Positions 1 through 17,800 of a DNA stretch of 64,000 nucleotides are shown here, piece after piece (the first letter of the stretch is position 1; every line of letters begins with the position of its first letter). The notes under the pieces were generated by a model. That model was not told the origin of the DNA. It made no database searches and saw nothing but the letters and a program-made list of their open reading frames with translations. The position numbers were made by a program, and so were the translations under genes. The stretch is from Iphione sp. A-MEVVRFRX5 (Eukaryota): the NCBI GenBank assembly GCA_976226885.1, contig OZ320321.1, positions 15,748,001 to 15,812,000 on the forward strand, in the 5' to 3' direction.

Positions 1-143
1 AAGATGAGGGAAATCATTGCTCCCATTTATCAAAACATTTTCCCCTTAATATTTTAGGAACTTTATATTTGATTTATTTATCAAAGGTTTCTTCTTTTTA
101 ACTAATTTTCAAAAAGGTTTATTGCATGATTATGTGACACACA

Positions 144-180
144 AGTAGTGTATAGTGAGCAACCCTAAGACACAGGTTTG
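144..180 (+). repeat. Left terminal inverted repeat (37 bp)
   Basis: agtagtgtatagtgagcaaccctaagacacaggtttg matches the reverse complement of 21794-21830 at 34/37 positions. Confidence 0.93.
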
Positions 181-270
181 TAAGTCACATGACTGGTCAC
201 ATGACCGCTCTGACTGGTCACATGTCCGATCAGATGACCGGAAGTCACGTGATTAGTCATGTGACTAGAA
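181..270. promoter_or_regulatory. Left subterminal array of GTCAC(A/G)TGAC E-box-like palindromes with a CCGGAAGT ETS-like site
   Basis: At least five GTCACATG/GTCACGTG-type motifs; TGACCGGAAGTCACGTGA (235-252) recurs inverted at the right end (21767-21784). The regulatory role is inferred. Confidence 0.55.
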
Positions 271-921: not shown

Positions 922-2030
922 ATGGAAGTCATATCAGAGAACGTTTCTGTGCAGGTTGTGGGAGACTTTGTGAATATTGAAAGAAAGCGCGGAGATTCAA
1001 CAGTAAGGAAGATAAAAATATCTAAACAACTTTTCATTACTGCTGATGAAAAATGGGAGAGTCTACTAGAAGGAGATCAAGTGAAGATAACGGTGAACCA
1101 CAAGATATGGGTAATTACACTCCAACCTTACAATGGTCGTGAGTATATCTGCTTTGGACGTGAAGCAAGGAATGGAGAAAAATTACTGTAAGTATAATAT
1201 ATATTTAATTGCGTATAGACTATATTACTATATGTGGTTAATATTTTGGATTTCATTACTCATTAACATATTTTAATGAATATATTTTTTTCAGTCATGC
1301 ATCATTCAATCTTACGGAAGATGAATGTGTGGACGTAATTGAACGAGTAAGGAATGGGGAGAAAGCATCTGAGGCAGCTACAAGTGATGATAGTGACCAG
1401 TCGTCTTCTATTCTTCAAAGTAAAGAGGATGGGCCATCTCCCCGGAAGAGGAGGAGGAGGAAGAAGTCCAGTGAGCCAAAACCACCTAAAGCTGTTAAAT
1501 ATCAGAGATACTCATTTCAGTTGATATCCTGTGTTGATAAAAGTACTGTAAATAGTGAACGCTCATTTATAAATCGAGAATTTTGTGTGACAGAGGGGAC
1601 AAAACTTCAAGGACTTGATGATATGCTTGAGTTCCCTACTGAGAAAGATTTAACTATTGAAGTTAAAGAAATCATAGAGAAGGTTTATGCCTATATGCTC
1701 CAATTTGAATATAGATTAAAGATCAAGGAGTGGTGTAAAGGATGTGAGACAAATGAGAACAATGAATTAGCTCACATTCCTGGATGTGTGCAAGTTCCAG
1801 AAGAAGTGGACAAAAGAGCCCTGCACGCAGCTCACGTTAGAATATCTGTAATGCGTTTAGCAAGTAAAATTATGTACAAAATTTATGCAGGTAATCAGGA
1901 AATTGTCGACAAGAAGATTCCCATAAGTGATTCTATGTGTAGTAAAATTATTTGTGAAGGTGAGAAAAAAGCGGAGGCTGCATTGGTTATGGAGTTTGAA
2001 CAAGATTATGATATGATAGAAAAGATGTAG
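922..2030 (+). CDS. Spliced two-exon Maverick gene: PC4/whirly-like ssDNA-binding domain(s), basic NLS-like stretch, and CxxC-x9-H-x3-C putative Zn site
   Basis: Exon 922-1187, GTAAGT...TTTTTTTCAG intron 1188-1294, exon 1295-2030. The phase-2 junction joins ORFs 886 and 1329 in frame (..PYNGREYICFGREARNGEKLL-HASFNLTEDEC..), resembling the PC4 motif V..F.G..YI.IR...G..KGISLT.EQW. CKGCETNENNELAHIPGC lies near the C-terminus. The fold assignment is by eye. Confidence 0.7.
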
Positions 2031-3196
2031 AGCATTGTATAAAATGATTTAGAACAATGTAGTTTGAACAAGATTTATTATATAGTCACTATTATCATCC
2101 ATATACTCTTGATTTAGTTCAACCAATACAACTACATAATCATGTTATAGTTTCTGAGGTAAACACCATCATTTGTTTACTCGAAGTTGGATTCATTTAT
2201 ATATATTGTAGATTAATCACTATAACGTCCTGTTTAAGAGTATACTAGGTTAATGCTAATCTAACATGTATTAAACATATACTATTGGATACGAGTATTC
2301 TGCAAATAAAGATATCTATACTACTAACGTACATATGAGGTGAAAAAGTTATACCCTTACGAAGGCAACTTATGCTGATTGTTACCTTATAACCTATACT
2401 TGTTATACTATAACAGTGAGGTAGGTATTGGTGTAAACATAATAAGTCATTAAGTGTTATATTCAAATAGACTTACCGATATATTGCTTTACTAAGGTTG
2501 ATGTATGATAGATGTAGGGTAATATCACTATTTGCGTTCTATATCCTTGTAGTAGAAGTAGTAATAGTAGTAGTAATAGCATAATGTGTAAAACTAAAGT
2601 GCGGTAGGTAGGTAACGTTAGCACACGATGACTTGACAAGTTCTAATGTAAAAAATCAATCAGATAATCATTGTACTATCATTACACAACTATTTTTCTG
2701 GTCCAACGTCCGTAACTCTTATCAGATCATATCTAATCATACATATCATTACTCAGTCGAATGACCAAAGTCTGATCACATTTACTATAGAGTTATACAA
2801 TCTTGATTCATATATTATCTGAATAAACAAACTAATGAATCACTGTGTTGTTCTTGAATATAGCTACATATATCAGTACGCTAAGGTTTATGAATGAACA
2901 AAAACAATAATATTTGAACCCAATCACTACTACTTATATATGGTTAAGCATTGAAATTACTCGTTGTTCTTAGTAAAGTAATATCAGAACACTTCAGCTA
3001 TAGGAATATATTGTCATATACGTATATGTCCGTTTTATCTGGATATCGTCCAATATATAGCAGATACGTCTCGAGGGGGATATATATATACATACAAAAT
3101 ATCCCTATATGCTATTGTGCATATGTGAACTTAATGGTGTAAGTTCGAACTAATTGTCCATCACAAATAAAAGTTCTGGTGGTTATAGTAGCTCAC

Positions 3197-3313
3197 GTAT
3201 GGTAGGTTTCCTCACAACAGATGTAATATTTGGAATGAGTCGTTCAGAGCCTGGTGGAATGCAGCAGCGCATGTCATCGTTTTTTACTGAAGAGATTTTC
3301 TTTTTTCTTTTAG
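3197..3313 (-). CDS. Probable internal exon (39 codons, phase 1-1), likely downstream part of the large minus-strand gene across the gap
   Basis: TATTTCAG acceptor and GTGAGC donor; open frame KRKKKISSVKNDDMRCCIPPGSERLIPNITSVVRKPTI; length 117 nt. Confidence 0.45.
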
Positions 3314-3448
3314 CTGAAATATATAATGTATAGTCAGTTAGTAGTGCAGTGTAATTAGCTCATTTATAGCAAGTATTTGGAGTATATATATATATATATA
3401 CATATCAATTGAGCAAACTAGATAATATATATGATGTTTATACTCAAG

Positions 3449-3676
3449 NNNNNNNNNNNNNNNNNNNNNNNNNNNNNNNNNNNNNNNNNNNNNNNNNNNN
3501 NNNNNNNNNNNNNNNNNNNNNNNNNNNNNNNNNNNNNNNNNNNNNNNNNNNNNNNNNNNNNNNNNNNNNNNNNNNNNNNNNNNNNNNNNNNNNNNNNNNN
3601 NNNNNNNNNNNNNNNNNNNNNNNNNNNNNNNNNNNNNNNNNNNNNNNNNNNNNNNNNNNNNNNNNNNNNNNNNNNN
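3449..3676. other. Assembly gap (N run)
   Basis: Run of n. Confidence 1.
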
Positions 3677-6183
3677 GAAGTGAACGTCTCGGGGGGCAAC
3701 CGCTTACTCGCCCATGGTGAAGATGGTGGATGGGATTTGTGGGAGGATCAAGCAGTGCGGTGTCAGATGAAGTAGAGGATAAGCTGTCTCGCCTCGGACG
3801 ACGGGAAGTGGGCGTAGAAGGCGTCGATTTGGAAGTTGGAATATCATCCTGGAGTGATTGACGCCTTGGTCGTAACTGATAAGGACAGAGAGTTGCAGTA
3901 TCCGAGACTGTAGATGAAATACTAGATCGTCTTTTACCACGGGCAGTTTTCAATGATGGGGTAGATGATGATGAGGAAGATGCTCCTTCCTGTATAGGGC
4001 AGTTTTTATGGTGTAAATGTTTGTGGGGAGTAGAAGTAGATCTCTCATTGCTAGGCCAAGTTTCATCTGATGGTACGTCATCGTAAAAATCTGTGGTAAC
4101 TGTTAAAGGTGGTACTTTTTTCATGACTTCTCTGATGCGCTCAATAATTGACTTTTCCATAACTGGCATTGGGGTTGGAAAAGTATTTGGTGTAGCACTT
4201 TCACTTTCATACGTGATGTCATCATATGAATCTTCATCCATGTCCTTGGGTGGTGTCCCTAGAACTGCTCTCATTTCTTTAATAACTGAAGATGAAATAG
4301 GTGGTGGTGGAATAGGGAATGTATCTCTTGGAAAAGAATTAGTTGCACTCCTCGTTGAAGTAAATTCATCCCTGTTAGGTGTATCTTTAAAAAATAGCGG
4401 TGGCACTTCCATGTTTTCAGTAGTTGTTGCTTTGCTTTCATTATCATATTTAAACATGGAGGTGGAACACTGAGCAGAGGATGAAGTAGTAGTAGTAGCT
4501 GTAGTTTCAGATTTTGGTGAAGGCGTATCAATAAAATTAGATACTGGAAGACCACCTTGTGACGGTGAATCAACTGGAGAATCTGGTGGTGATAAAGTCG
4601 ATGGTGAGCAATGGGTGAGGGTATCCTCGTTAATGCTAGTTTTGGGCTTCTTCGACGGAGTGGCTCCCGCTGTTGAACATCCAGAAGATATCTCAGCTAA
4701 CAGGGTGTGAGAGCTAGATGAAGTGGAGTCAGTAGAGGTTGAAATTGCATTGGTGGGAGGAGGTTCAGGGGTTATTTCTGTTACCGGGTTATGGGAATCA
4801 GATGTGGTGGTTTCCATATCCTCGTGTACAGATTCATGAGATGATTCTGGAGCTGGAGAACGAGGATTAGTAGGTTCTGTGTTACTGAGTGGAAATTCGG
4901 AGAATAGTTCTGTATCTATAGGTTGAATATCGGTCTCAGATGCTATTCTTGACAACAACTCCATCAAGGGAACTATAGTAGTCTCATCGTTGGAAGTGAC
5001 ATCAGTTTCTCTGAGGGTTGAGCGTAATTTTGATAATACATCTGAACTTGCGTTGTGAGATGAACTATCAGTAGCTGTTATTTCAGAATTGGAATAGTGT
5101 GCTCTGGTGGATGATGATGATGATGCTTCATTCTCGCTATCCATAGTTGCGGTGCGGGGTGTTGACGAGGAAGGGGTGGCTGATGGTGGTGGTGGTGGTG
5201 GTGGTGGTGGTGCTGTTGGACGCAGTGAGGTTAATGCTGAGCATGATGGTTTTACTTCAACTGGAGTAGAGCAGTGAAGTGGTCTGGCAGGTGCTGTTTC
5301 TTTTCTAATCTTTTTAGATAATGCAGCTGAGGCAGTCAATGATGTCTTTCCTTGCATACTTAAATCCACATCAGAGGGGAGCGGGTGGCTTGGGTGACAA
5401 AGGTCTGGTCGAAGTGCCCGCCTGGAGTTTGGTCTATAGACGAGCGAGTCACTGCTGGAGAAGGGTGCTGTTGCGGAAATATGAGAAATAGGGCTGGAAG
5501 AGGAGGAGGTAGAAGAGTTAAGAGTGGTAGAATTTGAAAATGGGGGGTCAATATAACTAGCACTAGTCAACCCACCTGGATTGGACATTAAATCAGAGAA
5601 TGGTGGTGGAATACCACACTTTTGATGGGATTCTTTATTAGATACGGTTTCGAATATTAGAGAACGTGGCAATAGGTGAGGAGGGCGGCCTTTTGGTGTT
5701 TGGGGTACAAATGGTGCTTTAATTTTCGGGGGAAAATCGACATCGTCACTTTCACAAGTACAATTTATTTTTTTACTTTTGGAGATTGGTGATGAACTTT
5801 TATGGTGGGGTTTCATAACCATGACAGTATCTGAAAAGTGGACACTAGGGCATTCATTTTTTGGGGTACGAGTAGGAGAGAACATAGAAGTGGTTTTAGA
5901 TGTATGACCATTTGAAATAGCGTTGGGGTGGGAAATAGTATTCAGCGGGATAGATTCAAATTCTGAAGAAGTATCAGATTTTAGGGACAAGGAAGCAACA
6001 GCACAAGAAGCAGTAGCAGTAGCAGCAATTGGGATGCGTGGCAGTGGTAAATTAACAATGGTAGCATCAGCAACATCATCAGCAGTAGCATTGGAGGAGG
6101 AGGAGACACTCACAGAAGCGTTGGGTGAGGGCGATGATGATATTGATGATGAAGTCAAAGCGGGGCCATCAAATCCAGTACGG
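3677..6183 (-). CDS. Large Ser/Thr/Pro-rich disordered coding exon (>835 codons, runs into the gap); probable exon 2 of the LRR-TM gene at 6641-7399
   Basis: Uninterrupted ORF whose first Met is about 120 codons in; polypyrimidine-CCTTATAG acceptor at 6184; poly-Pro and repeated RRxS motifs (KRRSSISSTVSDTA, RPRRQSL, RPRRDSLSSTSSDTA). Confidence 0.8.
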
Positions 6184-6640
6184 CTATAAGGGGATACATA
6201 GAGGAAATAAAGAGTGGGGGGAGATTTTAGTATCAGTTTATTAATAGTCAATATAAATAATCAATTAATTAGCCAAATAATTGTGTTGCGGTAACGTCCA
6301 CAACAAATATGTACTGTGAGAAAACACATATCTAGGAAATTGGCCCCTTGGAAATTCCAGAGCGAAAATTTGGTAGGACGAGTTTTACTAGGTAAGGGAT
6401 TTTGACCTTATAATAATATATAATTCTGGCTAGTTTAATTCATGAGACTTAGGTGAGAAGGAAAACACATTTTTACATGTTTTATCTATTCTTAATTGAG
6501 GTCCCTATACCATGGTCAGTTTTTATTTTGAGGGGAGCCCCCAGGTGTTTCTTTAATACAAATTGGTTATAATGTTTAGCAGTTTGTCTTAATTGTTTTT
6601 TTAAATACACCTAATATAGTAGATTAATAATAATTAATAC

Positions 6641-7399
6641 TTACGCTTGGTCCGGAATTGGGGGAGGAGAAGGTGTGTCAGCACGGTAGAATGTGGTGTC
6701 ATTGTTTCTCTCGGAAAGTAGCCATCGAGTATAAATTTTATAGCGCATACAAGGATACGCAATGGATGCACTAACAAGTAGCAATAAGATGGTGCCAGTT
6801 ATTATAAACATAGCCAAGTCTGAAGACGGGAGTGAGGCTGAAGAGCGTGCAACTTCGTCGTTACCTCCACTGTTGGATAAAGTGTGGGTTAAAGGGGTGG
6901 AATCCGCCAAATGTCCATGTTTGGTTACTATCATAATAGTCCGAGTGATTTTAATTCCTCTACTTTCCGAATTGAATGATCCGCGGGAGGATTGAGTTGG
7001 GCTCTGCTCACTGACAGTCGTATGTTCCAAAGACAGTTGTTCATTAATGACACTATCTGGGGGAGTAGAGTCTGTGCTTACGAATGAAATCTTGAACATT
7101 TCTACTCCATTAAGACTTATAGCTTCAGCTTGCAATAAGTCTGGGAAGACACGCTGGAGTTGTTGACGTAAAGATGCTTCATTATCCACTATGTAGGGAG
7201 CGTTCAGGTACAAGTAATAGTATCCCGGATAAGTGCGACGTAGTGAAAAAAAATAGCTAGTTGCTAGTGAGTTGCAATGTATGTTGTTTTTCAAACATAT
7301 GCATCGTCTGCACAGTTGAGTATGGCATGATACTGGTTGGGTTGATATCATCAAAAACAAGACAATTCCAATGAATATCCAACCTTTAAAGCGTAACAT
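6641..7399 (-). CDS. Type I membrane protein A: signal peptide, LRRNT-like CxxCxC-x6-C cap, degenerate LRR, Ser/Thr stalk, TM helix
   Basis: MLRFKGWIFIGIVLFLMIS.. (signal); CRRCICLKNNIHC; YYYLYLNAPYI; TM LAMFIITGTILLLLVSASIAYPCM. The stop codon lies inside a GTAAGT donor (6644-6639) that is in phase with the acceptor at 6184. Confidence 0.8.
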   Translation of the reverse strand: MLRFKGWIFIGIVLFLMISTQPVSCHTQLCRRCICLKNNIHCNSLATSYFFSLRRTYPGYYYLYLNAPYIVDNEASLRQQLQRVFPDLLQAEAISLNGVEMFKISFVSTDSTPPDSVINEQLSLEHTTVSEQSPTQSSRGSFNSESRGIKITRTIMIVTKHGHLADSTPLTHTLSNSGGNDEVARSSASLPSSDLAMFIITGTILLLLVSASIAYPCMRYKIYTRWLLSERNNDTTFYRADTPSPPPIPDQA

Positions 7400-7939
7400 T
7401 GTGAGCGTCGTTCTTCCGGATGAAGTTCAAAATGAAACCGGGTAACACAGGCACGTGTTGTTTCGCATAAAAAAGACAGCTCTAATAACCGCGTAACAAT
7501 CCAAGATACCTATGAGAACTTGTATCTGGATTAATTAATCGATGAAAAAGTCAGGGAGTATCGAGTGACCAAGTCCGAGAATAATCCGAAAATCCAGTTA
7601 GCAGTATCAACATAAGCGGATATACTCGCAAGTAACAAGCTCCATCCAATAGCAGACGGTCGTGTCACTAGGATCACTATCACGCAACTGTCCCAGAAAG
7701 AGAGAGAGTAACGAGTTTTCAGGGTAATTTAAGAGTCTGTGTCGGGAAAGATGAGAAGAGGAAGGGGGTGGGGTAATGATAAGATCGGGCAATAAATAAA
7801 TTAATCCCACCAGTCCCTAGATAAAAGAGATGCCGCGAAGTAATCCTATCTCAAATAGGGAGAGAGGGGATAGTTGAAGCACATTACTACACAGGTTGGG
7901 AAGTGAACCAGTCGTAAAAGTGAAGGACTCTAAGGCAGG

Positions 7940-8753
7940 ATGGAAACGAGAATTATTACAATACTACTTCTGTTAGTTACTTTGGATTCACTCAACACCA
8001 TGGGAGAGATCTTTAGATGTCCAATCAGGTGTGGAAGATGTCAACCTCCTCTGATGAGATGTCGAGGGGATATTGACCCATTTACTGTGAGATTTGCTCC
8101 TGATGAGCTCATGGAAAGGACTAGACTGGGGTGGCTGTCGGATACAAGAAGTAAGAGAAGAAATCTTTCAAACATTTAAGAACGTAAAATTTATTGATAT
8201 TAGACATCAAGGAGTTGTTCTTAAATGTGAGACATTGTCACGAGTGCCATCTCATGTAAGAATTTTTTCAGATTGTAAAAGCTTATCAACAGAAAGTCCC
8301 ACTCCATTATTGACTACCATTTCTTCTCACTCGAAGCACCCGACCATACTATCTTCCATTCGCGCTATAACTACATTGATTGAGTCGACTGTCACCCAAA
8401 GAAAATTTGTCACTACGAAATCTTCTTTATCATCTCAGACAACGATTAATAATCCATCCCCAGATGGACAATTGACGTCTCTTCCTCCTTCAAAGTGCAG
8501 TAGTTGTACAAGTAGTGAAAATAACTTTTTATCAACAATTAAGATTGATTTACCATCTACTTCAACCAAAGGGAGCGTGGATAAGACAAACGGAGAGAAC
8601 AAAGGCATGGGGAAAAGTAAAGTTAGCTCAAATGAGAGCAATAAAGGATTTGGGATACCAGTACTAGCAGGGGCAGTTTCAGTGGCTGTATGCTCCGTGA
8701 TAGCGCTAGGTGTAACATGTTGGTACTGCATTACTAAATGCAAACAGTTTTGA
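7940..8753 (+). pseudogene. Type I membrane protein B: signal peptide, LRRNT, LRR, Ser/Thr stalk, TM; split by a +1 frameshift near 8118
   Basis: ORF 7940-8179 (signal peptide, CPIRCGRCQPPLMRC) and ORF 8094-8753 (LDWGGCRIQEVREEIFQTFKNVKFIDIRHQ, stalk, TM VLAGAVSVAVCSVIALGVTCWYC) fuse into 270 aa if one G is removed from GAAAGGA. Confidence 0.75.
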
Positions 8754-9409
8754 ATGTGGAAAATAGAAGAAAATGAGAGGAAAAAAAGAAGGAGAAGGAG
8801 AAGGAATTTACATCGTCATCAGGATAATTCATCATGTGAGGTAAGTATACATCATTATAATATATGTAATATATGTATTAACTCCTTCGTCTTTTCCTCA
8901 ATCCTTCCTCCCAATTGGCTGTTATTGCAAACTTGTATATTTATAATATATATATATGTTCACGTTACATATATTCCATTTATATGTTATAATGAGTCTA
9001 CATATATATACCTATTAATTATTTTAGGAAGACTTTTCATCAACGCCAAGAGACAACGCAAGGAACAGAAGAAATGTAAGTATAGATATATACTCAATAT
9101 TTATTCATAATATTATTATTAATGTTCATATATATCCACATCAGTACAATGCATATAGTTATAAGTAAGAGAGAGCACTAGTTTATTTAATATATATCAG
9201 TATATTCAACACACAGTAACAATACAATATTATGGATATAGAGAGCTCACTTTTAATTCAATACATATCATATCTAACGAGTGTCATAATTATCATGATA
9301 TATATAATGCATAATATAATTTTCTTTCCCCCGCTTCACCACCACTATAACTATTGGTCAGCTGATTGTAATGGAAGACATGGCAATGGGAGAACATGTA
9401 AGTATGTAA
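8754..9409 (+). CDS. Three small phase-0 exons (8754-8840, 9028-9075, 9362-9409): Arg-rich tail of protein B beyond an in-frame TGA, or a separate micro-gene
   Basis: GTAAGT donors at 8841 and 9076; TTTTAG and GGTCAG acceptors; reads MWKIEENERKKRRRRRRNLHRHQDNSSCE-EDFSSTPRDNARNRRN-LIVMEDMAMGEHVSM*; ends 5 bp from the convergent protease stop. Confidence 0.5.
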
Positions 9410-9414
9410 AGTTA

Positions 9415-9908
9415 TTAAAAATACTTATAATTCATTACAACAGCACGGTCATTAGCTCCCAAATTTGAATCAAATGACAAAATAAAATCGTTAAATGATT
9501 CCCCTCTCATCCTTGCATGAATGTAAGCAAGGCAATAGTGTCCACATACAGGTTTGTCACCTTGTATCCTAGTGACAGAATAAGTGTAACTGGGAGAATT
9601 AGCGACCAAAAAATCACGAATGCGCGCACGATGATTTTCAGGCGGCATCCCTAATGAATCAAAAACTCCCCAGGTAAACGATCTCCATTCGCTTTCAGAG
9701 GTGGGAGTAGTATGACAATCCAGTGTAGTCCCGCACAGTTCAAACAATCAGTATTAACAACAAACACATATGGCGATTCCTTTGGAGGGGGAAGCGGGGT
9801 TGATGGTAAAACCTCAAATGATTCAACCCATGGCGTATCCGTGAATTCAGCTAAACGTCTTTGTATATCATTGCTTGATAGTGGAGAATCAAGTGGTGAC
9901 GGTGACAT
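9415..9908 (-). pseudogene. PRO: Adenain-like cysteine maturation protease, 1-nt deletion frameshift at 9661-9665
   Basis: N-half VNTD...GLHW (catalytic His); C-half FDSLG...Q...CGHYC (Asp, Gln, Cys). Adding one T to the T5 run restores GEFFDSLG and a 164-aa ORF. Confidence 0.92.
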
Positions 9909-11274
9909 TACGTGCTAAGTCAATGTTCATAAGAGCTGGAAATGCCCCAAATATCACAGCAACACACGACTCTGGAAGTCCAGAAGCAAACTTGACTGTC
10001 AAACGAGTATTTCCTTTTCGAAGAGGGGACAACAGCTCTCGCTCTCGACACTTGTCTAAATCAAAGAGAAAGAGTGTATATCCATTGACATAGTCATCCT
10101 CTGTGATGTCTGGCAATTGTCGTTGATTCCATGTGGGGAACGAATCAAATAATGCAACATATGGTGTTGCTATTTTCCTAGTACCAAAATCAGGTTGAAA
10201 AGGACGACCAGGTTTTGACTCACCATCAACTTCGAATGCAATATAGTTGGCGTTAAAATGACGAAAATAATAAGGATTCTTCTGAGGGTGGCCAGAGTAA
10301 GCAGATGCTTCAACTAATCCCATTACAATTCTAAGAGGAACACGGTCTTGAAAAATATTTTCAACCACAAACTCGAAACTATTTGAAGAAAGTGTAAATG
10401 AACGGTAATCACTCCTTATGAAAGGGTATAAGGCTGGTGATTTTTCTAATTGAGTGCGATGACGTAGAATAAGTCCTTCATGAATACGAGCAAATGTAAC
10501 AAGTAAAACAGCACGCACCAATTTCAAGTGATAAGTCCTAGATGTACGAGTAGGAGGGGCAGGGGTAGGAGGAGAAGTGCCCCCTTCTTTGTCTCCACCT
10601 TCACCAGCAGTAGTTGCACCCGAAGTTGACAAAGGAGGGTACATGAGACGAAAAACATCTGTTGCTGGATACAGTTTGACATTAATGGGGACACCGTTGA
10701 GAATGGGTCTCTGCTGATCACTAATTCCGGAAAAGAGACGAGTCATCAATCGTGCCACTCCTCCACCAGCAGTTTTAGCAGAACGCTTTCCTACTGCGGA
10801 ATTCCGTATAGGGTCATCCATAAACAAATTGTCGTCTTTAGCAAAACCACAAATTTTCATCCACCCCATCTCATCAGACAGTCCAGCATGTAGTAGGGTA
10901 TCAAACATTACTTTATATGGATATAGACCTCCGACACCGGTATTCATGACGGTATGCTGAAGCGATAACTCCATGCGCTGAAACATAGTTGATGCTCCCA
11001 TATTGATGAAGCCCACTTTATCCACCGATCCAATTGGTGTTTTATCCTCTTTTAAAATTTGTAAATCAACCCGCATACGAGTCTTGTGTAGTATAATATA
11101 ATCAAGTGAATCATTGGGTATATTGAATTCCACAACACTATCTCCTGTCACATCCCCGATGGGAAGAAACTCTTTAACATAGAATTCTCTAATACCACTC
11201 TGAGTAGGTGGAACTTGAAACAAGTCGAGGTCAAGCCCGAATCCATCATCAGAATCTTGAAGGACGTGTGTCAT
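9889..11274 (-). CDS. MCP: Major capsid protein (double jelly-roll, Polinton PY/hexon)
   Basis: 461 aa; LDLF..PPTQ..I, VEFNIP...DYI.L, NPY.F.HF, F..DG...P, GYTLF.FDL motifs typical of Polinton MCP; located between the protease and core genes. Confidence 0.93.
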   Translation of the reverse strand: MTHVLQDSDDGFGLDLDLFQVPPTQSGIREFYVKEFLPIGDVTGDSVVEFNIPNDSLDYIILHKTRMRVDLQILKEDKTPIGSVDKVGFINMGASTMFQRMELSLQHTVMNTGVGGLYPYKVMFDTLLHAGLSDEMGWMKICGFAKDDNLFMDDPIRNSAVGKRSAKTAGGGVARLMTRLFSGISDQQRPILNGVPINVKLYPATDVFRLMYPPLSTSGATTAGEGGDKEGGTSPPTPAPPTRTSRTYHLKLVRAVLLVTFARIHEGLILRHRTQLEKSPALYPFIRSDYRSFTLSSNSFEFVVENIFQDRVPLRIVMGLVEASAYSGHPQKNPYYFRHFNANYIAFEVDGESKPGRPFQPDFGTRKIATPYVALFDSFPTWNQRQLPDITEDDYVNGYTLFLFDLDKCRERELLSPLRKGNTRLTVKFASGLPESCVAVIFGAFPALMNIDLARNVTVTT

Positions 11275-12113: not shown

Positions 12114-13232
12114 TCAGTTAGAGGGTGTACCAATTTTTTGCAACTCGTCTGCGCTAATCCATGAGTCATAGTGAACAGGCCACCCAAGCCAACGTACAAC
12201 ATATCCACTGATACCGCCCAGCTTTTTCTTGCGTAATACCTTCTCAATTTTGTACTGAGTTTTATCATTCACATGAACCTTAATTAACTCCTCTTCGTAA
12301 AATCGTCCATCTATTTCCTCATTATTCCAGGATTTAATACTATACTGTGCCACACCATGTCGTCGTGTACGCCCAATAATAACAAAAAGTTCATGTGTCC
12401 ATTGTTCGTCATAAGCTCGAGTAAAAGGTTGTCGAAAACGAGCCAAACGAACCACATCACCCACTTCAAAACGATAGGGTTTGTAAGTACTGCTGCTATT
12501 TTTGGTGTGAGAATATTGTCTATTCCACAGTTCAACTTTGTCTATATCATCTGAAGTGGCCAAGGCAGGAGTTGTTCCAATTGATCGATGATGACGATGG
12601 TTATAAGCATCAGTAAAAGAACTTAGTTGATCAACCCAAACATGCGTCTGATGGTGATACATGTGGCGCATTAAACGTGTTTTAAGTGTTTTAATAAATC
12701 TCTCAGCGTAATTGGCTTTAACTTCATTCCTAGTAACAACATGTTTAACATCCATCTGTTTTAAATAACGTTCCATCCATCGATTGTTAAATTCGCTTCC
12801 ACCATCTGTTCTTAACACCCGACACACATGTCCATCTTCTTCATTCTCCATCACCGATCGAAGGGCAGTTAGAGTTTCTTTGGCTTTTAAACTCTTTAAA
12901 GGTCTGCTCCATGCGTAACGAGTGAAGATATCAATAACAACTAAGAAATGTCCTATACCATTGTTTGAAGAACGCCAAGCAGTCATGTTAGCAGTATCTG
13001 CATCGAATTGATCAAATTTATCTGAGACCACAACCCGTGGTCGCTTCACAGTTCGAGTGGTGTGAGATGGAGCAAATAGGGTGTAAGTCTCTTGACCATG
13101 TAACCATTCTTTAATCTGTTGTAAGGTGTATGGTCGTCCTGCCATCCTAGTATGATGGTACAACTCTCTAGCACCTCCAAATGCAGCAGGATGATGGGGA
13201 TCATAATAAATTTTACTCAAATACTTGTCCAT
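12114..13232 (-). CDS. INT: Retroviral-like (rve, DDE) integrase with C-terminal chromodomain
   Basis: DADTA..., LVVIDIFTRYAW, LRTDGGSEF, ANYAERFIKTLK, YNHRHHRSIGTTP; chromodomain YKIEKVL...VRWLGW..YDSWI. Confidence 0.97.
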   Translation of the reverse strand: MDKYLSKIYYDPHHPAAFGGARELYHHTRMAGRPYTLQQIKEWLHGQETYTLFAPSHTTRTVKRPRVVVSDKFDQFDADTANMTAWRSSNNGIGHFLVVIDIFTRYAWSRPLKSLKAKETLTALRSVMENEEDGHVCRVLRTDGGSEFNNRWMERYLKQMDVKHVVTRNEVKANYAERFIKTLKTRLMRHMYHHQTHVWVDQLSSFTDAYNHRHHRSIGTTPALATSDDIDKVELWNRQYSHTKNSSSTYKPYRFEVGDVVRLARFRQPFTRAYDEQWTHELFVIIGRTRRHGVAQYSIKSWNNEEIDGRFYEEELIKVHVNDKTQYKIEKVLRKKKLGGISGYVVRWLGWPVHYDSWISADELQKIGTPSN

Positions 13233-13600: not shown

Positions 13601-14094
13601 GATGGTGTAATCAGATTATCATCATCATCACATCCATCCCCTTCTTCTCTTTCGTCTTCTTCTTCTTCTTCTTCTTCTTCTTTGTCCTCCTCTTCTTCAC
13701 TCACTTTCTCTTTTGGAGATGATAATAGTGGAGGAGTATATATTGGTGAATCTTCCGTCAACCTCCACAACTCGAGCTCAACTGATCTAAATAAATGAAG
13801 TAGTTGCCGATAATATCTGCTAACAAGCGCCGCCCTAGATCTATATGATAACTTGCGATTTGCTAGTTTTGAGAGTAGCCCCCGTCGCTTCTCAGCATAC
13901 TTTTTTACTTCTTCTTTTACTGGCAACAGCAATATATTATGAACAATCTCTGCAAGCGCTTCTATCTGTCCTGGTGTTGCTGTATCAAATAATGCTTCAA
14001 CTTGCTTGCGACTAGGGCTAGCCAAGATGAGACGAATAAAATTGGAATGTTTCTTTAATAAGAAACTTGTCATTCTATTTTTTGTACCAAACAA
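13597..14094 (-). CDS. Small helical Maverick protein with acidic tail, unknown function
   Basis: 165 aa; ATPGQIEALAEIVHNILL..LLSKLA motif of the kind I recall next to Polinton ATPases; start/stop overlaps with flanking genes. Confidence 0.7.
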   Translation of the reverse strand: MFGTKNRMTSFLLKKHSNFIRLILASPSRKQVEALFDTATPGQIEALAEIVHNILLLPVKEEVKKYAEKRRGLLSKLANRKLSYRSRAALVSRYYRQLLHLFRSVELELWRLTEDSPIYTPPLLSSPKEKVSEEEEDKEEEEEEEEDEREEGDGCDDDDNLITPS

Positions 14095-14707
14095 GCGGCT
14101 GTTCTTCTCCCGGAAAGATGTGACTAATCAACTTTACATCCGTGAAGTTGTGAGGATGTAAATCTATCACTAGATATCCATATGGCTCTTTAGTTGCATC
14201 TTCGTAAGCTGCCTTTACTTCCACCATTCCAAGTTGACTACTGAGTCGACTGATTTGGTGAACGTCCCGCGGATTCCTAAATAGTACCAGGTATTGCGAA
14301 TTCAGAGCAATGGACTTTGCACATTTGCCTTGACAGAATGGATTCTGAATAAGATTAATAACTGTTATACGATCTTGGTGTGATCCTCGAGTGAATAAAT
14401 CCCGAACTTTTTCATTCTGCACAACGTCGTCCATTAAATCATCTATTATCAGTAATGTACCTTTAGGATGTTTTACATTGTCCACATTGACTCCTTCACG
14501 AAATTCGACTTCCCCCATCAACTCTTCAAAAATAGATTGCCACACACCATAGCAATAAATTATCCTTTCCGGAATAGGAGGTTGAAACATCTGTTGTCTG
14601 TTTTTTATGAGACGTCTGACAAAATATGTTTTTCCGGAAGACATAGCCCCGCTCACCATGATTGTTGATGGAGTAGCGAACGTATATTCCGGTATCTCAA
14701 TCTCCAT
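14075..14707 (-). CDS. ATP: A32/FtsK-like DNA packaging ATPase
   Basis: Walker A GAMSSGKT, Walker B LLIIDDLM, RGSH, LIQN, R..ALNSQYLVLFRNPRD. Confidence 0.96.
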   Translation of the reverse strand: MEIEIPEYTFATPSTIMVSGAMSSGKTYFVRRLIKNRQQMFQPPIPERIIYCYGVWQSIFEELMGEVEFREGVNVDNVKHPKGTLLIIDDLMDDVVQNEKVRDLFTRGSHQDRITVINLIQNPFCQGKCAKSIALNSQYLVLFRNPRDVHQISRLSSQLGMVEVKAAYEDATKEPYGYLVIDLHPHNFTDVKLISHIFPGEEQPLVWYKK

Positions 14708-14812: not shown

Positions 14813-17800
14813 CTAATCCATCTCACATCTGATATCATCCCATATCTCTCCTAATCTATTTCTCCCCCGGAACTCTTCTGGTGATGATATCATCACCATT
14901 GACTCATCCATCCCAACCCCCCAATACTTGTCTTTATTAGCATATACAATGAGGTTGGTATGATTTAAGGCTGATGTCACAATATTCCCAAGTGCTCTTG
15001 CTTTTATTCGACTAACTTCTTTCATCACGTTGAAACGGACGCTGTCTCTCCATTCCTTTTCTTTCTTTATCATATTGGCATACATTGTGTATTCTGTCCT
15101 ATTCGTAGTTGATTTAATTGCTCGTCCTATTTCTTCTTCTTTGTGGTACTCCGCCATCCGATAAAGGAAGAGATGCTCTGCGGACACAAACCTGTCCCCC
15201 ATGTCACATTGGTAAAGAGGACTCAGAACATGCCAGGGATGACTGAATATGTAATAATCCCCCACTCCATTCTCCCATGGACACAGTGTTAATTGGAGTG
15301 GTGATGTGTGTACCCCATCATCATGAACTCTTCTTTTTGCATAAAAGTATGTGAACCCTTCTCGAGCCAATTCATATGTACACACCGTTCCCATCCATAC
15401 CCTAAAGCCAACATTCCGTCCTCCCTTACTTTGACGAGTCTGTAGTACACTTTCATATGTGTCTATCGGATCCACAACATAAGCTTTTGACACCCCCTTA
15501 CAACTCATTTTTATGGTAGTAGGGGATGTTTCTCTACTAGTCAGAACATAAGTCTTACTAGTCAAAGCAATGATTTTATCACCCTTGGCTTCTTCTTTCA
15601 TTATGCCGGGCACGCGTCGATCAAAACTGTTATGATGTGAACAACATTCTCTCATGAACCAACAAGGGTGTTTATTGTCATCACAGTTATCCATGATATC
15701 TTCTCGATATTTTCGTCGTCCTTCTTCCGTCATAGCCCCAACAATTGAAGTACTAGCCAATGCTATATAAGCACTGTCTGTGTCCATTGTCACATACTCA
15801 AATTGTGATCGTTCCATCAGCTTATCAATGCAATCATAATAAAATGATAGCATGACCATCTTGGCATACTGAAGGATCGAAAACCCCACGTAGACAGGCA
15901 TATCTAATGTTATACGGTTTTTGGCCATTTCCACTTCATACATCCCATTAAGCTCCGTCATAGCTCTGAATCGAGGAGAATTCACCGCTGCTGCTGTTTG
16001 GTTTGGGGTTGTAAAGTACTTCACCGCATGCTGCTTTTCTTTTTGCATGATAATGCCTCCGTACGCAGAATTCTCGATCAACTTCATTGTATCACCAATA
16101 ATAGCCATATCTGGATCACAGTCTCCTCTTCTTCTCGCCTCTGTTACATCATCAACGAACGACTTGAAACATTCCCTAGGAATGAACTCAATTACTTGAT
16201 GAACTTTGGTGACGACAAGACCATGTTCTAGGTACCATTTCAACAAAGGTGACATTATTAGCGTTTTTCTCGCACTCATTCCTCCAATCAATAATCTTCT
16301 CGGTCTCTTGGAAAGGTGTTGTTCTGTTACATATTGCCTCATATGTTCTCCAATATCCTCAAAGTTGACGGTAGTATTTCCAAATAGAGGACACATCTCC
16401 CCGAAGTATGCTGAAGGAGTTACACTACGTTCTTTTCCTTTTGGCCAGCTATTTGGAACATGTATATCTACTTCTAGCGCACCAAAGAACAAATCAGCAC
16501 ATACTCCTTCTAAGATCTTTTCTTCTGTCACTTTCCCCCTATGTATCCTGCTAAAAGTCAGAGTAAATTGTTCTGCATGATTTCTTAGTTTACTATTTAC
16601 TACAAGCATGGAAGAGAATTTACATTCTTCCATCGCCACTAAAGTATAGCCTTGCTGCTCAATGAACTTCTTCCTAATTGCTGTACGTATTTCTCGTCTC
16701 TTTCGCTCTTTTTCATTTGTCTTCCCCTTCATACATTCATGCCCATGAAAGTAACATCCGTTAAATTCAAATACCAACTTCAGCGGCAATGCAATACCAT
16801 CTACTCGATATGGTCCAATCCAAACTTCACCCTCATACCTGTTATGAGCGTGAGCAATATGGATGCCTCGTGCTTTCGCTTCCCACTCCATCCAAATCAC
16901 ACTTGTGGTACCCAATGGAATTTTCTCTCTCTTGAAGCCAGTCTGAACCCTACGTCTAACATATGTACCTGTCGCATGTTTCTTCCCAATACAGCTCAGG
17001 TACAATGAATTAGCGTCAAGTCCCAGAATTGACTGACATTTATTTGGGGAATCTCTGATGAATGTCACATCTTTTTCATGAGCCCTTGTGAAAACAATAG
17101 CTGGTCCTCCGACTATATTCTTCCTAAATATCTGATATATATCTTCTTCCGATGCTCCAAATGTTGGAAATCTAGCACCATTGCTCAAAGCAGATTGAAA
17201 TAATAATCTTCTCGCAACACCAGGGGCAGAAACAGCTATTTTAAAAACGTCCATACCCCTATCAAAATAAAATTGTTGCAGTCGAATCACTCCTTCTACA
17301 AAGGGCCCAACATCCAATTTATTATAATATATTAAAAGATCCCGTAATGTCTGCATTCCTTCTCTCTCCCACGTTTTCTCCAAATCTTCGTATTCTTCTC
17401 TAGAAATATTGGTTCCCCTTAATGAGGAGTAAAATGCTTCATGATCCGGTAATTGTGATTCTGATAATCTTTCAGGTCCATCTAGGTATTCGTAACAGAA
17501 AACACCCTTTCCAACTTCTACGCCATACGCCTTTAGAAACTTGGCGTAAGAAACACCCGGAGTTAAATACTGTGCCACATCCAGAAACTTCAGCTCTCCA
17601 TTGTCAACTGATATATATGTGTTATTTCTTTTAATGACGAAGAGTTCATTTTTTTCTTTTTTTAGTCGGCTGAGCAAGACCCCCTTCATTACATTCATGT
17701 CATACTTTCCTGAATTGAACCCCAAAACAGGTAAAGTATTGACATACTGCATGAACCTTTCTGTTACTCTTTTCAGACGCTTCATCATTTGTGTATGTGG

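What the first reader, a model, noticed from the sequence alone, without database searches (positions are those of the whole stretch)
6641..9409. Head-to-head pair of LRRNT-LRR-mucin-TM genes sharing a 540-bp intergenic region
Seen: a second gene (7940 onward, + strand) has the same layout: signal peptide, CPxxCxxC..C cap, one or two LRRs, Ser/Thr stalk, TM, then an Arg-rich stretch and small phase-0 exons. The two genes diverge from 7400-7939. Established: the short LRR + stalk layout resembles animal surface receptors (GPIb-alpha/VLR-type architecture). Inference: a co-regulated two-subunit surface module, possibly captured from the host and duplicated. With the giant tail, this is the best candidate for an undescribed system in the window.
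Basis: partly seen in the sequence, partly recalled or inferred. Interest (0 to 1): 0.75.

Follow-up and report, generated by a model that had tools for sequence, protein, structure and literature searches.

The report
Maverick surface-protein genes, one broken
A virus-like Maverick transposon in an animal genome carries two back-to-back genes for small cell-surface proteins that look like host receptors; one is broken in this copy, and similar genes occur singly in distant relatives, so this is probably a recurring kind of viral accessory gene rather than a two-part machine.

Summary
The two divergent genes are real and lie in the accessory region of a full-length Maverick/Polinton (144-21830, AGTAGT ends, CACACA target duplication). 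Both have a signal-peptide-like start, four-cysteine cap, Ser/Thr stalk and transmembrane helix; gene 1 probably splices into a disordered tail of at least 835 aa. No similarity between the two genes was detected, so duplication is unsupported. An LRR fold is unproven for either: no Pfam hit, and both gene 1 models were low-confidence. However, 3 of 55 distant Maverick loci carry a signal-peptide plus cysteine-cap gene. One of them (L039) is LRR-like by ESM Atlas features and structure. In what the loci show, these genes occur singly, head-to-head with a core gene. Best reading: Mavericks repeatedly carry fast-evolving, probably mini-LRR type I surface proteins acting as host-receptor mimics or adhesins; here gene 1 is open as far as it can be read and gene 2 is dead in this assembly. 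A co-regulated two-subunit module is not excluded but has no support. New variant of a known kind; interest 0.42.

The parts
138..143 (.). Left 6-bp target-site duplication (CACACA)
   Evidence: same hexamer at 21831-21836
144..205 (+). Left terminal inverted repeat, starts AGTAGT
   Evidence: blastn 81.5% over 65 columns with 21766-21830, E 2e-13
3677..6183 (-). Probable exon 2 of gene 1: cytoplasmic tail of at least 835 aa (S 19%, T 12%, P 13%), running into an N gap at 3449-3676
   Evidence: Open frame; pyrimidine-rich AG acceptor in phase with the exon 1 donor (phase read); no Pfam hit; splicing inferred, no RNA
6184..6644 (-). Probable phase-2 intron of gene 1, 461 bp, 31% GC, GTAAGT donor
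6645..7399 (-). Gene 1 exon 1: signal peptide (about aa 1-24), Cys cap aa 30-42, possible degenerate LRR-like units to about aa 105, Ser/Thr stalk, TM about aa 195-213; open
   Evidence: fold unresolved
7400..7939 (.). 540-bp divergent intergenic region, 43% GC; no TATA[AT]A on either strand; CCAAT at 7646, G-rich box at 7762-7772 and GATAAA at 7820, all on + in the half nearer gene 2
   Evidence: promoter function untested
7940..8179 (+). Gene 2, first frame: signal peptide and Cys cap aa 27-41; frame closes at 8177-8179 (frameshift somewhere in the overlap with the next frame)
8091..8753 (+). Gene 2, second frame: one or two LRR-like units, two further Cys, Ser/Thr stalk, TM about 8646-8720, premature stop 8751-8753
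8754..8840 (+). Arg-rich stretch in frame after the stop, ending at a phase-0 GTAAGT donor (8841)
9028..9075 (+). Gene 2 small phase-0 exon (16 codons)
9362..9409 (+). Gene 2 last small exon (12 codons to the donor at 9398, or to the stop ending at 9409)
9415..9893 (-). Maturation-protease-like gene, frameshifted between about 9660 and 9700
   Evidence: tblastn of 4 relatives' ORFs gives two frames; the label comes from position and a recalled motif, with no Pfam hit
9889..11274 (-). Major-capsid-like gene, 461 aa, open
   Evidence: 16 relatives, best 39%; the label is inferred from size and position, with no family hit
12114..13232 (-). rve integrase with chromodomain, open
   Evidence: Pfam rve 6.6e-9, Chromo 9.1e-6
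14075..14707 (-). Packaging-ATPase-like gene, open
   Evidence: weak Pox_A32; 31-45% to ORFs of related loci
14813..19624 (-). Protein-primed PolB with zinc fingers and a C-terminal NADAR domain, open
21766..21836 (-). Right terminal inverted repeat (ends ACTACT at 21830) and target-site duplication

Best explanation
These are two unrelated or extremely diverged accessory genes of an animal Maverick/polintovirus. Each encodes a type I membrane protein: a small disulfide-capped head, probably a minimal extracellular LRR module, held off the cell surface by a Ser/Thr (probably O-glycosylated) stalk. Most likely job: when the element is expressed, the protein sits on the host cell surface and mimics or decoys a host LRR receptor or adhesion molecule, and its cytoplasmic part engages host signalling or trafficking (a long disordered Ser/Thr/Pro tail in gene 1, a short basic tail in gene 2). 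In this copy gene 1 is open as far as it can be read and gene 2 is dead. The head-to-head layout is ordinary packing: gene 1 runs with the core genes and gene 2 is the one inverted gene next to the protease. Shown: location, architecture, breaks, lack of similarity, and analogous genes in other Mavericks. Inferred: splicing, LRR fold, surface display and function.
For: The element's ends, target duplication and core genes are in place. Architecture. Among 55 Maverick loci, three carry a signal-peptide plus Cys-cap gene: L039 (found by screen) and L008 and L052 (found by eye; both screens missed them, so 3 is a lower bound). L039's protein has two further relatives at 62% and 37%, with cap, both LRR-like units and the C-terminal cysteines invariant while the stalk drifts. 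The Atlas puts it with LRR proteins by features (0.90) and by structure (TM 0.55-0.65). The L008/L052 head domain is under purifying selection (pN 0.17, pS 0.74 over 96 codons; dS is saturated, so the ratio is rough). The window element, L039 and L008/L052 sit in three separate places on a quick integrase tree (27 rows, 3 changes forced by starred branches). Gene 1 aligns collinearly with L008 across the head (shuffle p 0.015, one of 15 pairs tested). Gene 1's Atlas leads include LRRNT and LRR clusters at 0.76-0.77. Two of the three lesions found in the element fall in gene 2, which is 6.5% of the 15.4 kb of coding DNA counted (p about 0.012, post hoc).
Against: There is no direct evidence of an LRR fold in either window gene. 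Pfam: 0 hits. PDB sequence searches: nothing better than E 0.6. Gene 1's best Atlas hit is 0.81 to ECPIP/C21orf62, and only 4 of its ten best family-bearing hits agree. Pfam also misses L039, so that test is weak. Profiles of the L039 and L008/L052 families do not recognise gene 1 (86 and 217 of 1000 shuffles score as high) or the second gene 2 frame (142 and 285); the first gene 2 frame gives 436 and 14 of 1000. hhalign probabilities are 0.5-2.4%. The p 0.015 alignment does not survive correction for 15 pairs. The Atlas hit for L039 shares only 125 of 256 features, a third of shuffled proteins also get ten concordant hits, and its model has pLDDT 0.53. Gene 1 lacks a C-terminal Cys cap. The L008 and L052 ORFs run off the held DNA, so their TM is unseen. 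That L039's gene lies inside its element is inferred from its 150-bp distance to the ATPase. No function was tested.
Confidence: 0.55

Rival explanations
1. One reading: a co-regulated two-subunit surface complex, like GPIb-alpha with GPIX, driven by a bidirectional promoter, with gene 1 as the signalling subunit and gene 2 as its partner; the breaks are recent or assembly errors.
For: Two proteins of the same rare layout lie 540 bp apart head to head. Gene 2's small exons kept their splice signals and phase. The long core ORFs are open, so the insertion is young and the breaks may be recent or technical; the window has N gaps.
Against: The three related genes occur singly in what is held and face pPolB or the ATPase instead. 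No such pair was flagged beyond the protease in the 8 of 23 protease-bearing loci with at least 1.5 kb there. That test is weak: only 3 loci reach 3 kb and the screen has misses. Gene 2 has two lesions while gene 1 has none seen. The promoter-like motifs found are all on + in the gene 2 half.
Confidence: 0.1
2. The heads are not LRR at all but small Cys-rich domains of another fold (for example ECPIP/C21orf62-like, or new), and the resemblance to LRRNT is only cysteine spacing.
For: Gene 1's top three Atlas hits are ECPIP (0.78-0.81). The single-sequence model is an alpha/beta sheet with a long helix, not a solenoid. Gene 1 has no C-terminal cap, and no LRR family hit was found.
Confidence: 0.22
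3. They are virion envelope or attachment proteins of an enveloped polintovirus, used for entry or budding rather than for changing the host cell.
For: They have type I topology and mucin-like stalks. Nematode Mavericks encode a signal-peptide plus single-TM fusogen, MFUS-1 (10.1101/2022.07.12.499685, passages).
Against: The heads (about 85 aa) are far smaller than MFUS-1 (866 aa in all). A cytoplasmic tail over 800 aa is unusual for a virion protein (own knowledge). The gene is patchy among relatives.
Confidence: 0.08
4. Recently captured host genes carried as neutral cargo and now decaying.
For: They are spliced, host-like genes in the accessory region, as described for nematode Maverick cargo, and gene 2 is broken.
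Against: No true homologue of gene 1 was found: 0 of 302 word-sharing candidates, and the 5 hits among 1.84 billion representatives are repeat-summing artefacts. Its ectodomain and TM are in one exon. The host genome is not held, so a close host copy could not be sought.
Confidence: 0.05

Closest known systems
Maverick/Polinton (polintovirus, adintovirus) accessory regions and cargo genes
   Same: AGTAGT/ACTACT ends, 6-bp target duplication, pPolB, ATPase, integrase, capsid-like and protease-like genes, and an accessory region next to the core (PMC8097293, passages). Intron-bearing cargo is described for nematode Mavericks (10.1101/2022.07.12.499685, passages).
   Different: The accessory genes named in the passages seen are PLA2X, GasderminX, cupiennin-like and Oncoid (PMC8502044), and WASP proteases, KRMA kinases and MFUS-1. 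None is a small Cys-cap, stalk, TM protein. All core genes here are on one strand, unlike the two converging modules of most vertebrate elements.
Platelet GPIX, GPIb-beta and GPIb-alpha (short extracellular LRR type I proteins; features recalled)
   Same: Signal peptide, four-Cys N-cap, very few repeats, single TM, and a Ser/Thr stalk as in GPIb-alpha. The Maverick protein of L039 matches a GPIX-like Atlas cluster at TM 0.63 over 94 residues.
   Different: No sequence similarity was detected for the window genes. Gene 1 has no C-terminal Cys cap and has a tail over 800 aa. No complex was shown.
Lamprey variable lymphocyte receptors (features recalled)
   Same: LRRNT-like cap, few repeats, Thr/Ser-rich stalk.
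   Different: VLRs are assembled somatically from cassettes, and VLRB is GPI-anchored. These genes have a TM and a cytoplasmic tail, and no further copies of either gene were found in the window.
MFUS-1 of nematode Mavericks
   Same: A Maverick-encoded protein with a signal peptide and a single TM.
   Different: MFUS-1 is an 866-aa class III fusogen; these heads are about 85 aa.

Membership tests
Maverick/Polinton element | Terminal inverted repeats with AGTAGT/ACTACT ends and a 6-bp target duplication | tested here: met
   the repeat is short (62 bp) and imperfect (81.5%)
Maverick/Polinton element | pPolB and rve integrase | tested here: met
   Pfam rve above cut-off; DNA_pol_B_2 E 1.7e-4, below cut-off; 36-39% over more than 1300 aa to related loci
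Maverick/Polinton element | Packaging ATPase, major and minor capsid, protease | tested here: inconclusive
   Homologous ORFs in matching order in related loci, but no family hit above cut-off; labels inferred
Extracellular LRR proteins (LRRNT-LRR-LRRCT), gene 1 | Four-Cys N-terminal cap | tested here: inconclusive
   Spacing C-x2-C-x-C-x6-C is present; no Pfam LRRNT hit; Atlas LRRNT cluster 0.77
Extracellular LRR proteins (LRRNT-LRR-LRRCT), gene 1 | LxxLxLxxNxL repeats and solenoid fold | tested here: inconclusive
   Pattern not matched in the head; models pLDDT 52 and 39; fold searches at background
Extracellular LRR proteins (LRRNT-LRR-LRRCT), gene 1 | Cys-containing C-terminal cap | tested here: not met
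   No ectodomain Cys after aa 42
Extracellular LRR proteins (LRRNT-LRR-LRRCT), gene 2 | Four-Cys cap, repeats, C-terminal cap | tested here: inconclusive
   Cap spacing, one short LRR-like match and two later Cys; Pfam 0; no fold of the whole head was obtained
Extracellular LRR proteins, Maverick protein of L039 (P0079-P0081) | Cap, repeats, C-terminal cap, LRR fold | tested here: inconclusive
   Leans to met: invariant motifs, Atlas 0.90 and TM 0.55-0.65; but Pfam 0 LRR hits, no LRR hit in PDB sequences, and the Atlas marks the aligned parts as under its bar
Type I membrane mucin-stalk protein | Signal peptide, Ser/Thr stalk, single TM | tested here: met
   Hydropathy and composition only; no dedicated signal-peptide predictor was run
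GPIb-IX-like hetero-complex | Physical association of the two subunits | not testable with these tools
   Gene 2's head is split by a frameshift and no intact natural copy was found
Duplicated (paralogous) gene pair | Detectable similarity between the two genes | tested here: not met
   Shuffle p 0.35-0.72, no DNA match better than E 0.22; very old homology is not excluded
Variable lymphocyte receptor | Cassette assembly and GPI anchor | tested here: not met
   TM plus cytoplasmic tail; no further copies in the window

The most novel reading that the evidence does not exclude
Invertebrate polintoviruses carry a whole undescribed class of miniature LRR surface receptors, present in at least three separate integrase lineages, and in this lineage two of them form a co-expressed GPIb-IX-like complex whose giant disordered tail rewires host signalling, for example as an immune decoy or as a block to superinfection by another virus. 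The broader half alone (a recurring class of Maverick mini-LRR membrane proteins) I put at about 0.5.
Probability: 0.1. Interest if true: 0.8.

Novelty: new variant of a known kind. Interest (0 to 1): 0.42.

Why it matters
Whether animal Mavericks act as real viruses that deal with host immunity is open. Receptor-like surface proteins kept under purifying selection in several lineages would be direct evidence that they manipulate the host cell surface, as large DNA viruses do, and would give concrete proteins to test. No paper describing such genes turned up in five searches. For this window alone the value is moderate: one gene is broken, the fold is unproven and no close relative was found.

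Tried and rejected
No genome is held for the window, so copy number and host paralogues could not be checked. No sequencing run was listed, which is no evidence either way, and no reads were laid. Six scans of viral contigs (gene 1, the capsid-like protein and four alignments), the first metagenome scan and one prokaryote-genome scan found no relative. tblastn of gene 1, both gene 2 frames and the tail against the 55 loci gave no hit at E<=0.05. The five phmmer hits for gene 1 were rejected as repeat-summing artefacts, at most 18 bits per stretch: a fibronectin-type-III-like repeat protein (label by eye), two prokaryotic ubiquitin-like repeat proteins, a ChaC-like protein and one unassigned duplicated sequence. 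An intron explaining gene 2's frame change was considered: no strong donor with a pyrimidine-rich acceptor fits 8040-8200 by inspection. The records behind L008, L052, L016, L018 and L020 could not be extended. The sigma-70 scan is irrelevant to an animal promoter. The careful integrase tree did not finish, so the quick tree is used; it holds 27 rows, and loci with short or stop-containing integrase matches were left out. The stalk dN/dS was set aside as poorly aligned. Co-folding was not run. Four of five look-ups in earlier scan notes were blank. Supplements of the five papers opened were not read and could list such genes.
Full report
Context. The finding lies inside a full-length Maverick/Polinton of 21.7 kb. 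The element starts AGTAGT at 144 and ends ACTACT at 21830, with CACACA on both sides. Its terminal repeats are short and imperfect (81.5% over 65 columns). The core genes all run on the minus strand: pPolB with zinc fingers and a NADAR domain, ATPase, integrase with chromodomain, minor- and major-capsid-like genes and a protease-like gene. The capsid and protease labels come from position and homology to related loci, not from family hits. The nearest capsid relatives are only 39% and 38% identical, no genome is held and no sequencing run was listed, so this lineage is poorly sampled. The long core ORFs are open and only the protease is frameshifted, so the insertion is probably young and the repeat asymmetry probably not decay (inference).

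Observation. The two start codons, 7399 (-) and 7940 (+), are 540 bp apart. Gene 1 exon 1 encodes 252 aa: a hydrophobic start, a C-x2-C-x-C-x6-C cap, about 60 further residues without cysteine, a stalk of 30-37% Ser/Thr and a TM helix. A GTAAGT donor at 6644 and a pyrimidine-rich acceptor at 6184 are in phase and would join it to an open frame of at least 835 aa rich in Ser, Thr and Pro, which runs into an N gap. This splice is inferred; there are no RNA data. Gene 2 has the same layout but is broken twice, which the finding does not mention. Its ATG frame closes after 79 aa and the rest lies in another frame (8091-8753); an in-frame stop at 8751-8753 cuts off the Arg-rich stretch. No convincing intron explains the frame change (by inspection). 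The downstream small exons look real: three GTAAGT donors in 571 bp against 0.15 expected (p about 5e-4), with both small exons in phase 0. So gene 2 was a working spliced gene whose tail is now cut off, or the assembly is wrong. Two of the three lesions I found fall in gene 2, which is 6.5% of the coding DNA counted (p about 0.012, post hoc). This hints that gene 2 was dispensable.

Are they duplicates? No similarity was detected. Local alignments of gene 1 with either gene 2 frame score within shuffles (p 0.35-0.72), and no DNA match is better than E 0.22. They share a layout, and at most a very old origin.

Are they LRR? Not shown. Pfam gives no LRR or LRRNT hit for gene 1 or the gene 2 frames, nor for gene 2 read through with X at its breaks. 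PDB sequence searches give nothing better than E 0.6. Gene 1's Atlas hits are all under 0.9: ECPIP/C21orf62 at 0.78-0.81, then LRRNT and LRR clusters at 0.76-0.77. Two AlphaFold2 runs on gene 1's head gave pLDDT 52 and 39, and fold searches of the first were at background. Homology searches found no true relative: 0 of 302 candidates, and five artefacts among 1.84 billion representatives. By eye both heads have an LRRNT-like cysteine spacing followed by one or two degenerate hydrophobic repeats (LRR consensus recalled). Gene 1 has no C-terminal cysteine cap.

Related elements. A metagenome scan with a capsid alignment returned 55 Maverick loci at 24-36% identity. None matches the window's two genes by tblastn. 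Three carry a gene of the same kind. L039 has a 246-aa ORF with signal peptide, C-x2-C-x-C cap, two LRR-like units, a cysteine-bearing C-cap, Ser/Thr stalk and TM, 150 bp from the ATPase and divergent from it. It has two relatives at 62% and 37% with an invariant head and a drifting stalk. The Atlas places it with LRR proteins by features (0.90; 10 of 10 family-bearing hits in the clan) and by its own model (TM 0.55-0.65, including a GPIX-like cluster at 0.63). The caveats are a low shared-feature count (125 of 256), model pLDDT 0.53, and no LRR hit in Pfam or PDB sequences. L008 and L052 have a signal-peptide, cysteine-cap, Thr-rich ORF divergent from pPolB that runs off the held DNA. I found these two by eye; both of my screens (649 ORFs, 1272 frames) missed them, so 3 of 55 is a lower bound, and most loci are too short to show accessory regions. 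The L008/L052 head is under purifying selection (pN 0.17, pS 0.74, 96 codons; saturated). Links between these families and the window genes are weak: gene 1 with L008 p 0.015 among 15 pairs, hhalign 0.5-2.4%, and profile scores mostly within shuffles. On a quick integrase tree the window element, L039 and L008/L052 fall in three places; the label is not significantly clustered (85 of 500 shuffles as low).

Is the pair a module? Nothing supports it beyond adjacency. The related genes occur singly in what is held and are also head-to-head, but with core genes. Of 23 loci with a protease match, 8 extend at least 1.5 kb beyond it and none was flagged as holding such a pair; only 3 reach 3 kb, so this is weak. 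In the 540-bp spacer there is no TATA[AT]A on either strand, and the CCAAT, G-rich and GATAAA motifs are on + in the half nearer gene 2. Binding could not be tested because no intact natural gene 2 head was available.

Mechanism. Most likely (0.55) these are independent accessory genes for surface proteins with a small, probably mini-LRR head on a glycosylated stalk, acting as mimics or decoys of host receptors or adhesion molecules when the element is expressed, with gene 1's long disordered tail as a docking site for host signalling proteins. Location, architecture, breaks and the existence of analogous genes are shown. Fold, splicing, display and function are inferred. Rivals: non-LRR head (0.22), two-subunit complex (0.10), virion envelope protein (0.08), decaying recent host capture (0.05).

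Literature. I saw keyword passages only, not whole texts or supplements, of PMC8502044, PMC11071296, PMC11131425, PMC8097293 and 10.1101/2022.07.12.499685. They describe accessory regions, intron-bearing cargo, membrane-active accessory proteins and the MFUS-1 fusogen; none of those passages mentions an LRR membrane protein. Five searches pairing Polinton, Maverick, adintovirus or polintovirus with LRR or membrane terms listed no paper whose title or abstract start describes one; a sixth on viral LRR decoys gave only general reviews. Features of GPIb-IX and VLRs are recalled. One unchecked earlier scan note (e1-7884490) reports an LRR gene in a non-autonomous Polinton of another genome; it is a lead only.

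Verdict. Observation partly confirmed, interpretation partly supported. The element is an ordinary Maverick; the recurring class of receptor-like accessory genes appears undescribed in what I could search; the two-subunit system is unsupported. New variant of a known kind, interest 0.42.

Noticed in passing
window 75-140 and 21893-21957: The two host flanks share a 67-column direct repeat (79%, E 2e-11), so the element inserted into a short tandem or duplicated host repeat containing CA runs.
   Followed up: partly
window 9415-9893 (-): The protease-like gene is frameshifted between about 9660 and 9700, the only broken core gene found.
   Followed up: yes
window 14813-15300 (-): pPolB ends in a NADAR domain (Pfam E 1.6e-12, above cut-off). 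Relatives' pPolB alignments stop before it, and L003 has a separate small ORF with weak similarity.
   Followed up: partly
window 928-1188 and 1295-2030 (+): A probable two-exon gene at the left end (GTAAGT at 1188); no Pfam hit of note. By eye it resembles PC4-like DNA-binding proteins (recalled, untested).
   Followed up: partly
window 19620-20875 (-): Several short AT-flanked exons upstream of pPolB with a GTAAGT donor near 20648, possibly a spliced 5' part of pPolB or a separate gene.
   Followed up: no
window 7762-7772 and 20990-21000: The 11-mer AAGGGGGTGGG occurs only twice in the 64 kb, both times on + inside the element's non-coding regions, and a 13-bp match links the same two regions in opposite orientation; possibly a shared promoter word.
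   Followed up: partly
window 9362-9409 and P0081 C-terminus: Gene 2's last exon and the C-terminus of P0081 both end in a short hydrophobic-MED-x-A-like stretch; not tested and may be chance.
   Followed up: no
L036 1343-1732: A 130-aa signal-peptide plus TM ORF sits between the capsid-like and protease-like genes of another Maverick; no family hit.
   Followed up: partly
window 43057-48229 (-): Two long GC-rich, low-complexity ORFs (297 and 1075 aa) outside the Maverick, with no Pfam hit of note; possibly part of another integrated element.
   Followed up: no
window 3150-3320 (-): A probable further small exon beyond the N gap that could belong to gene 1's tail.
   Followed up: no
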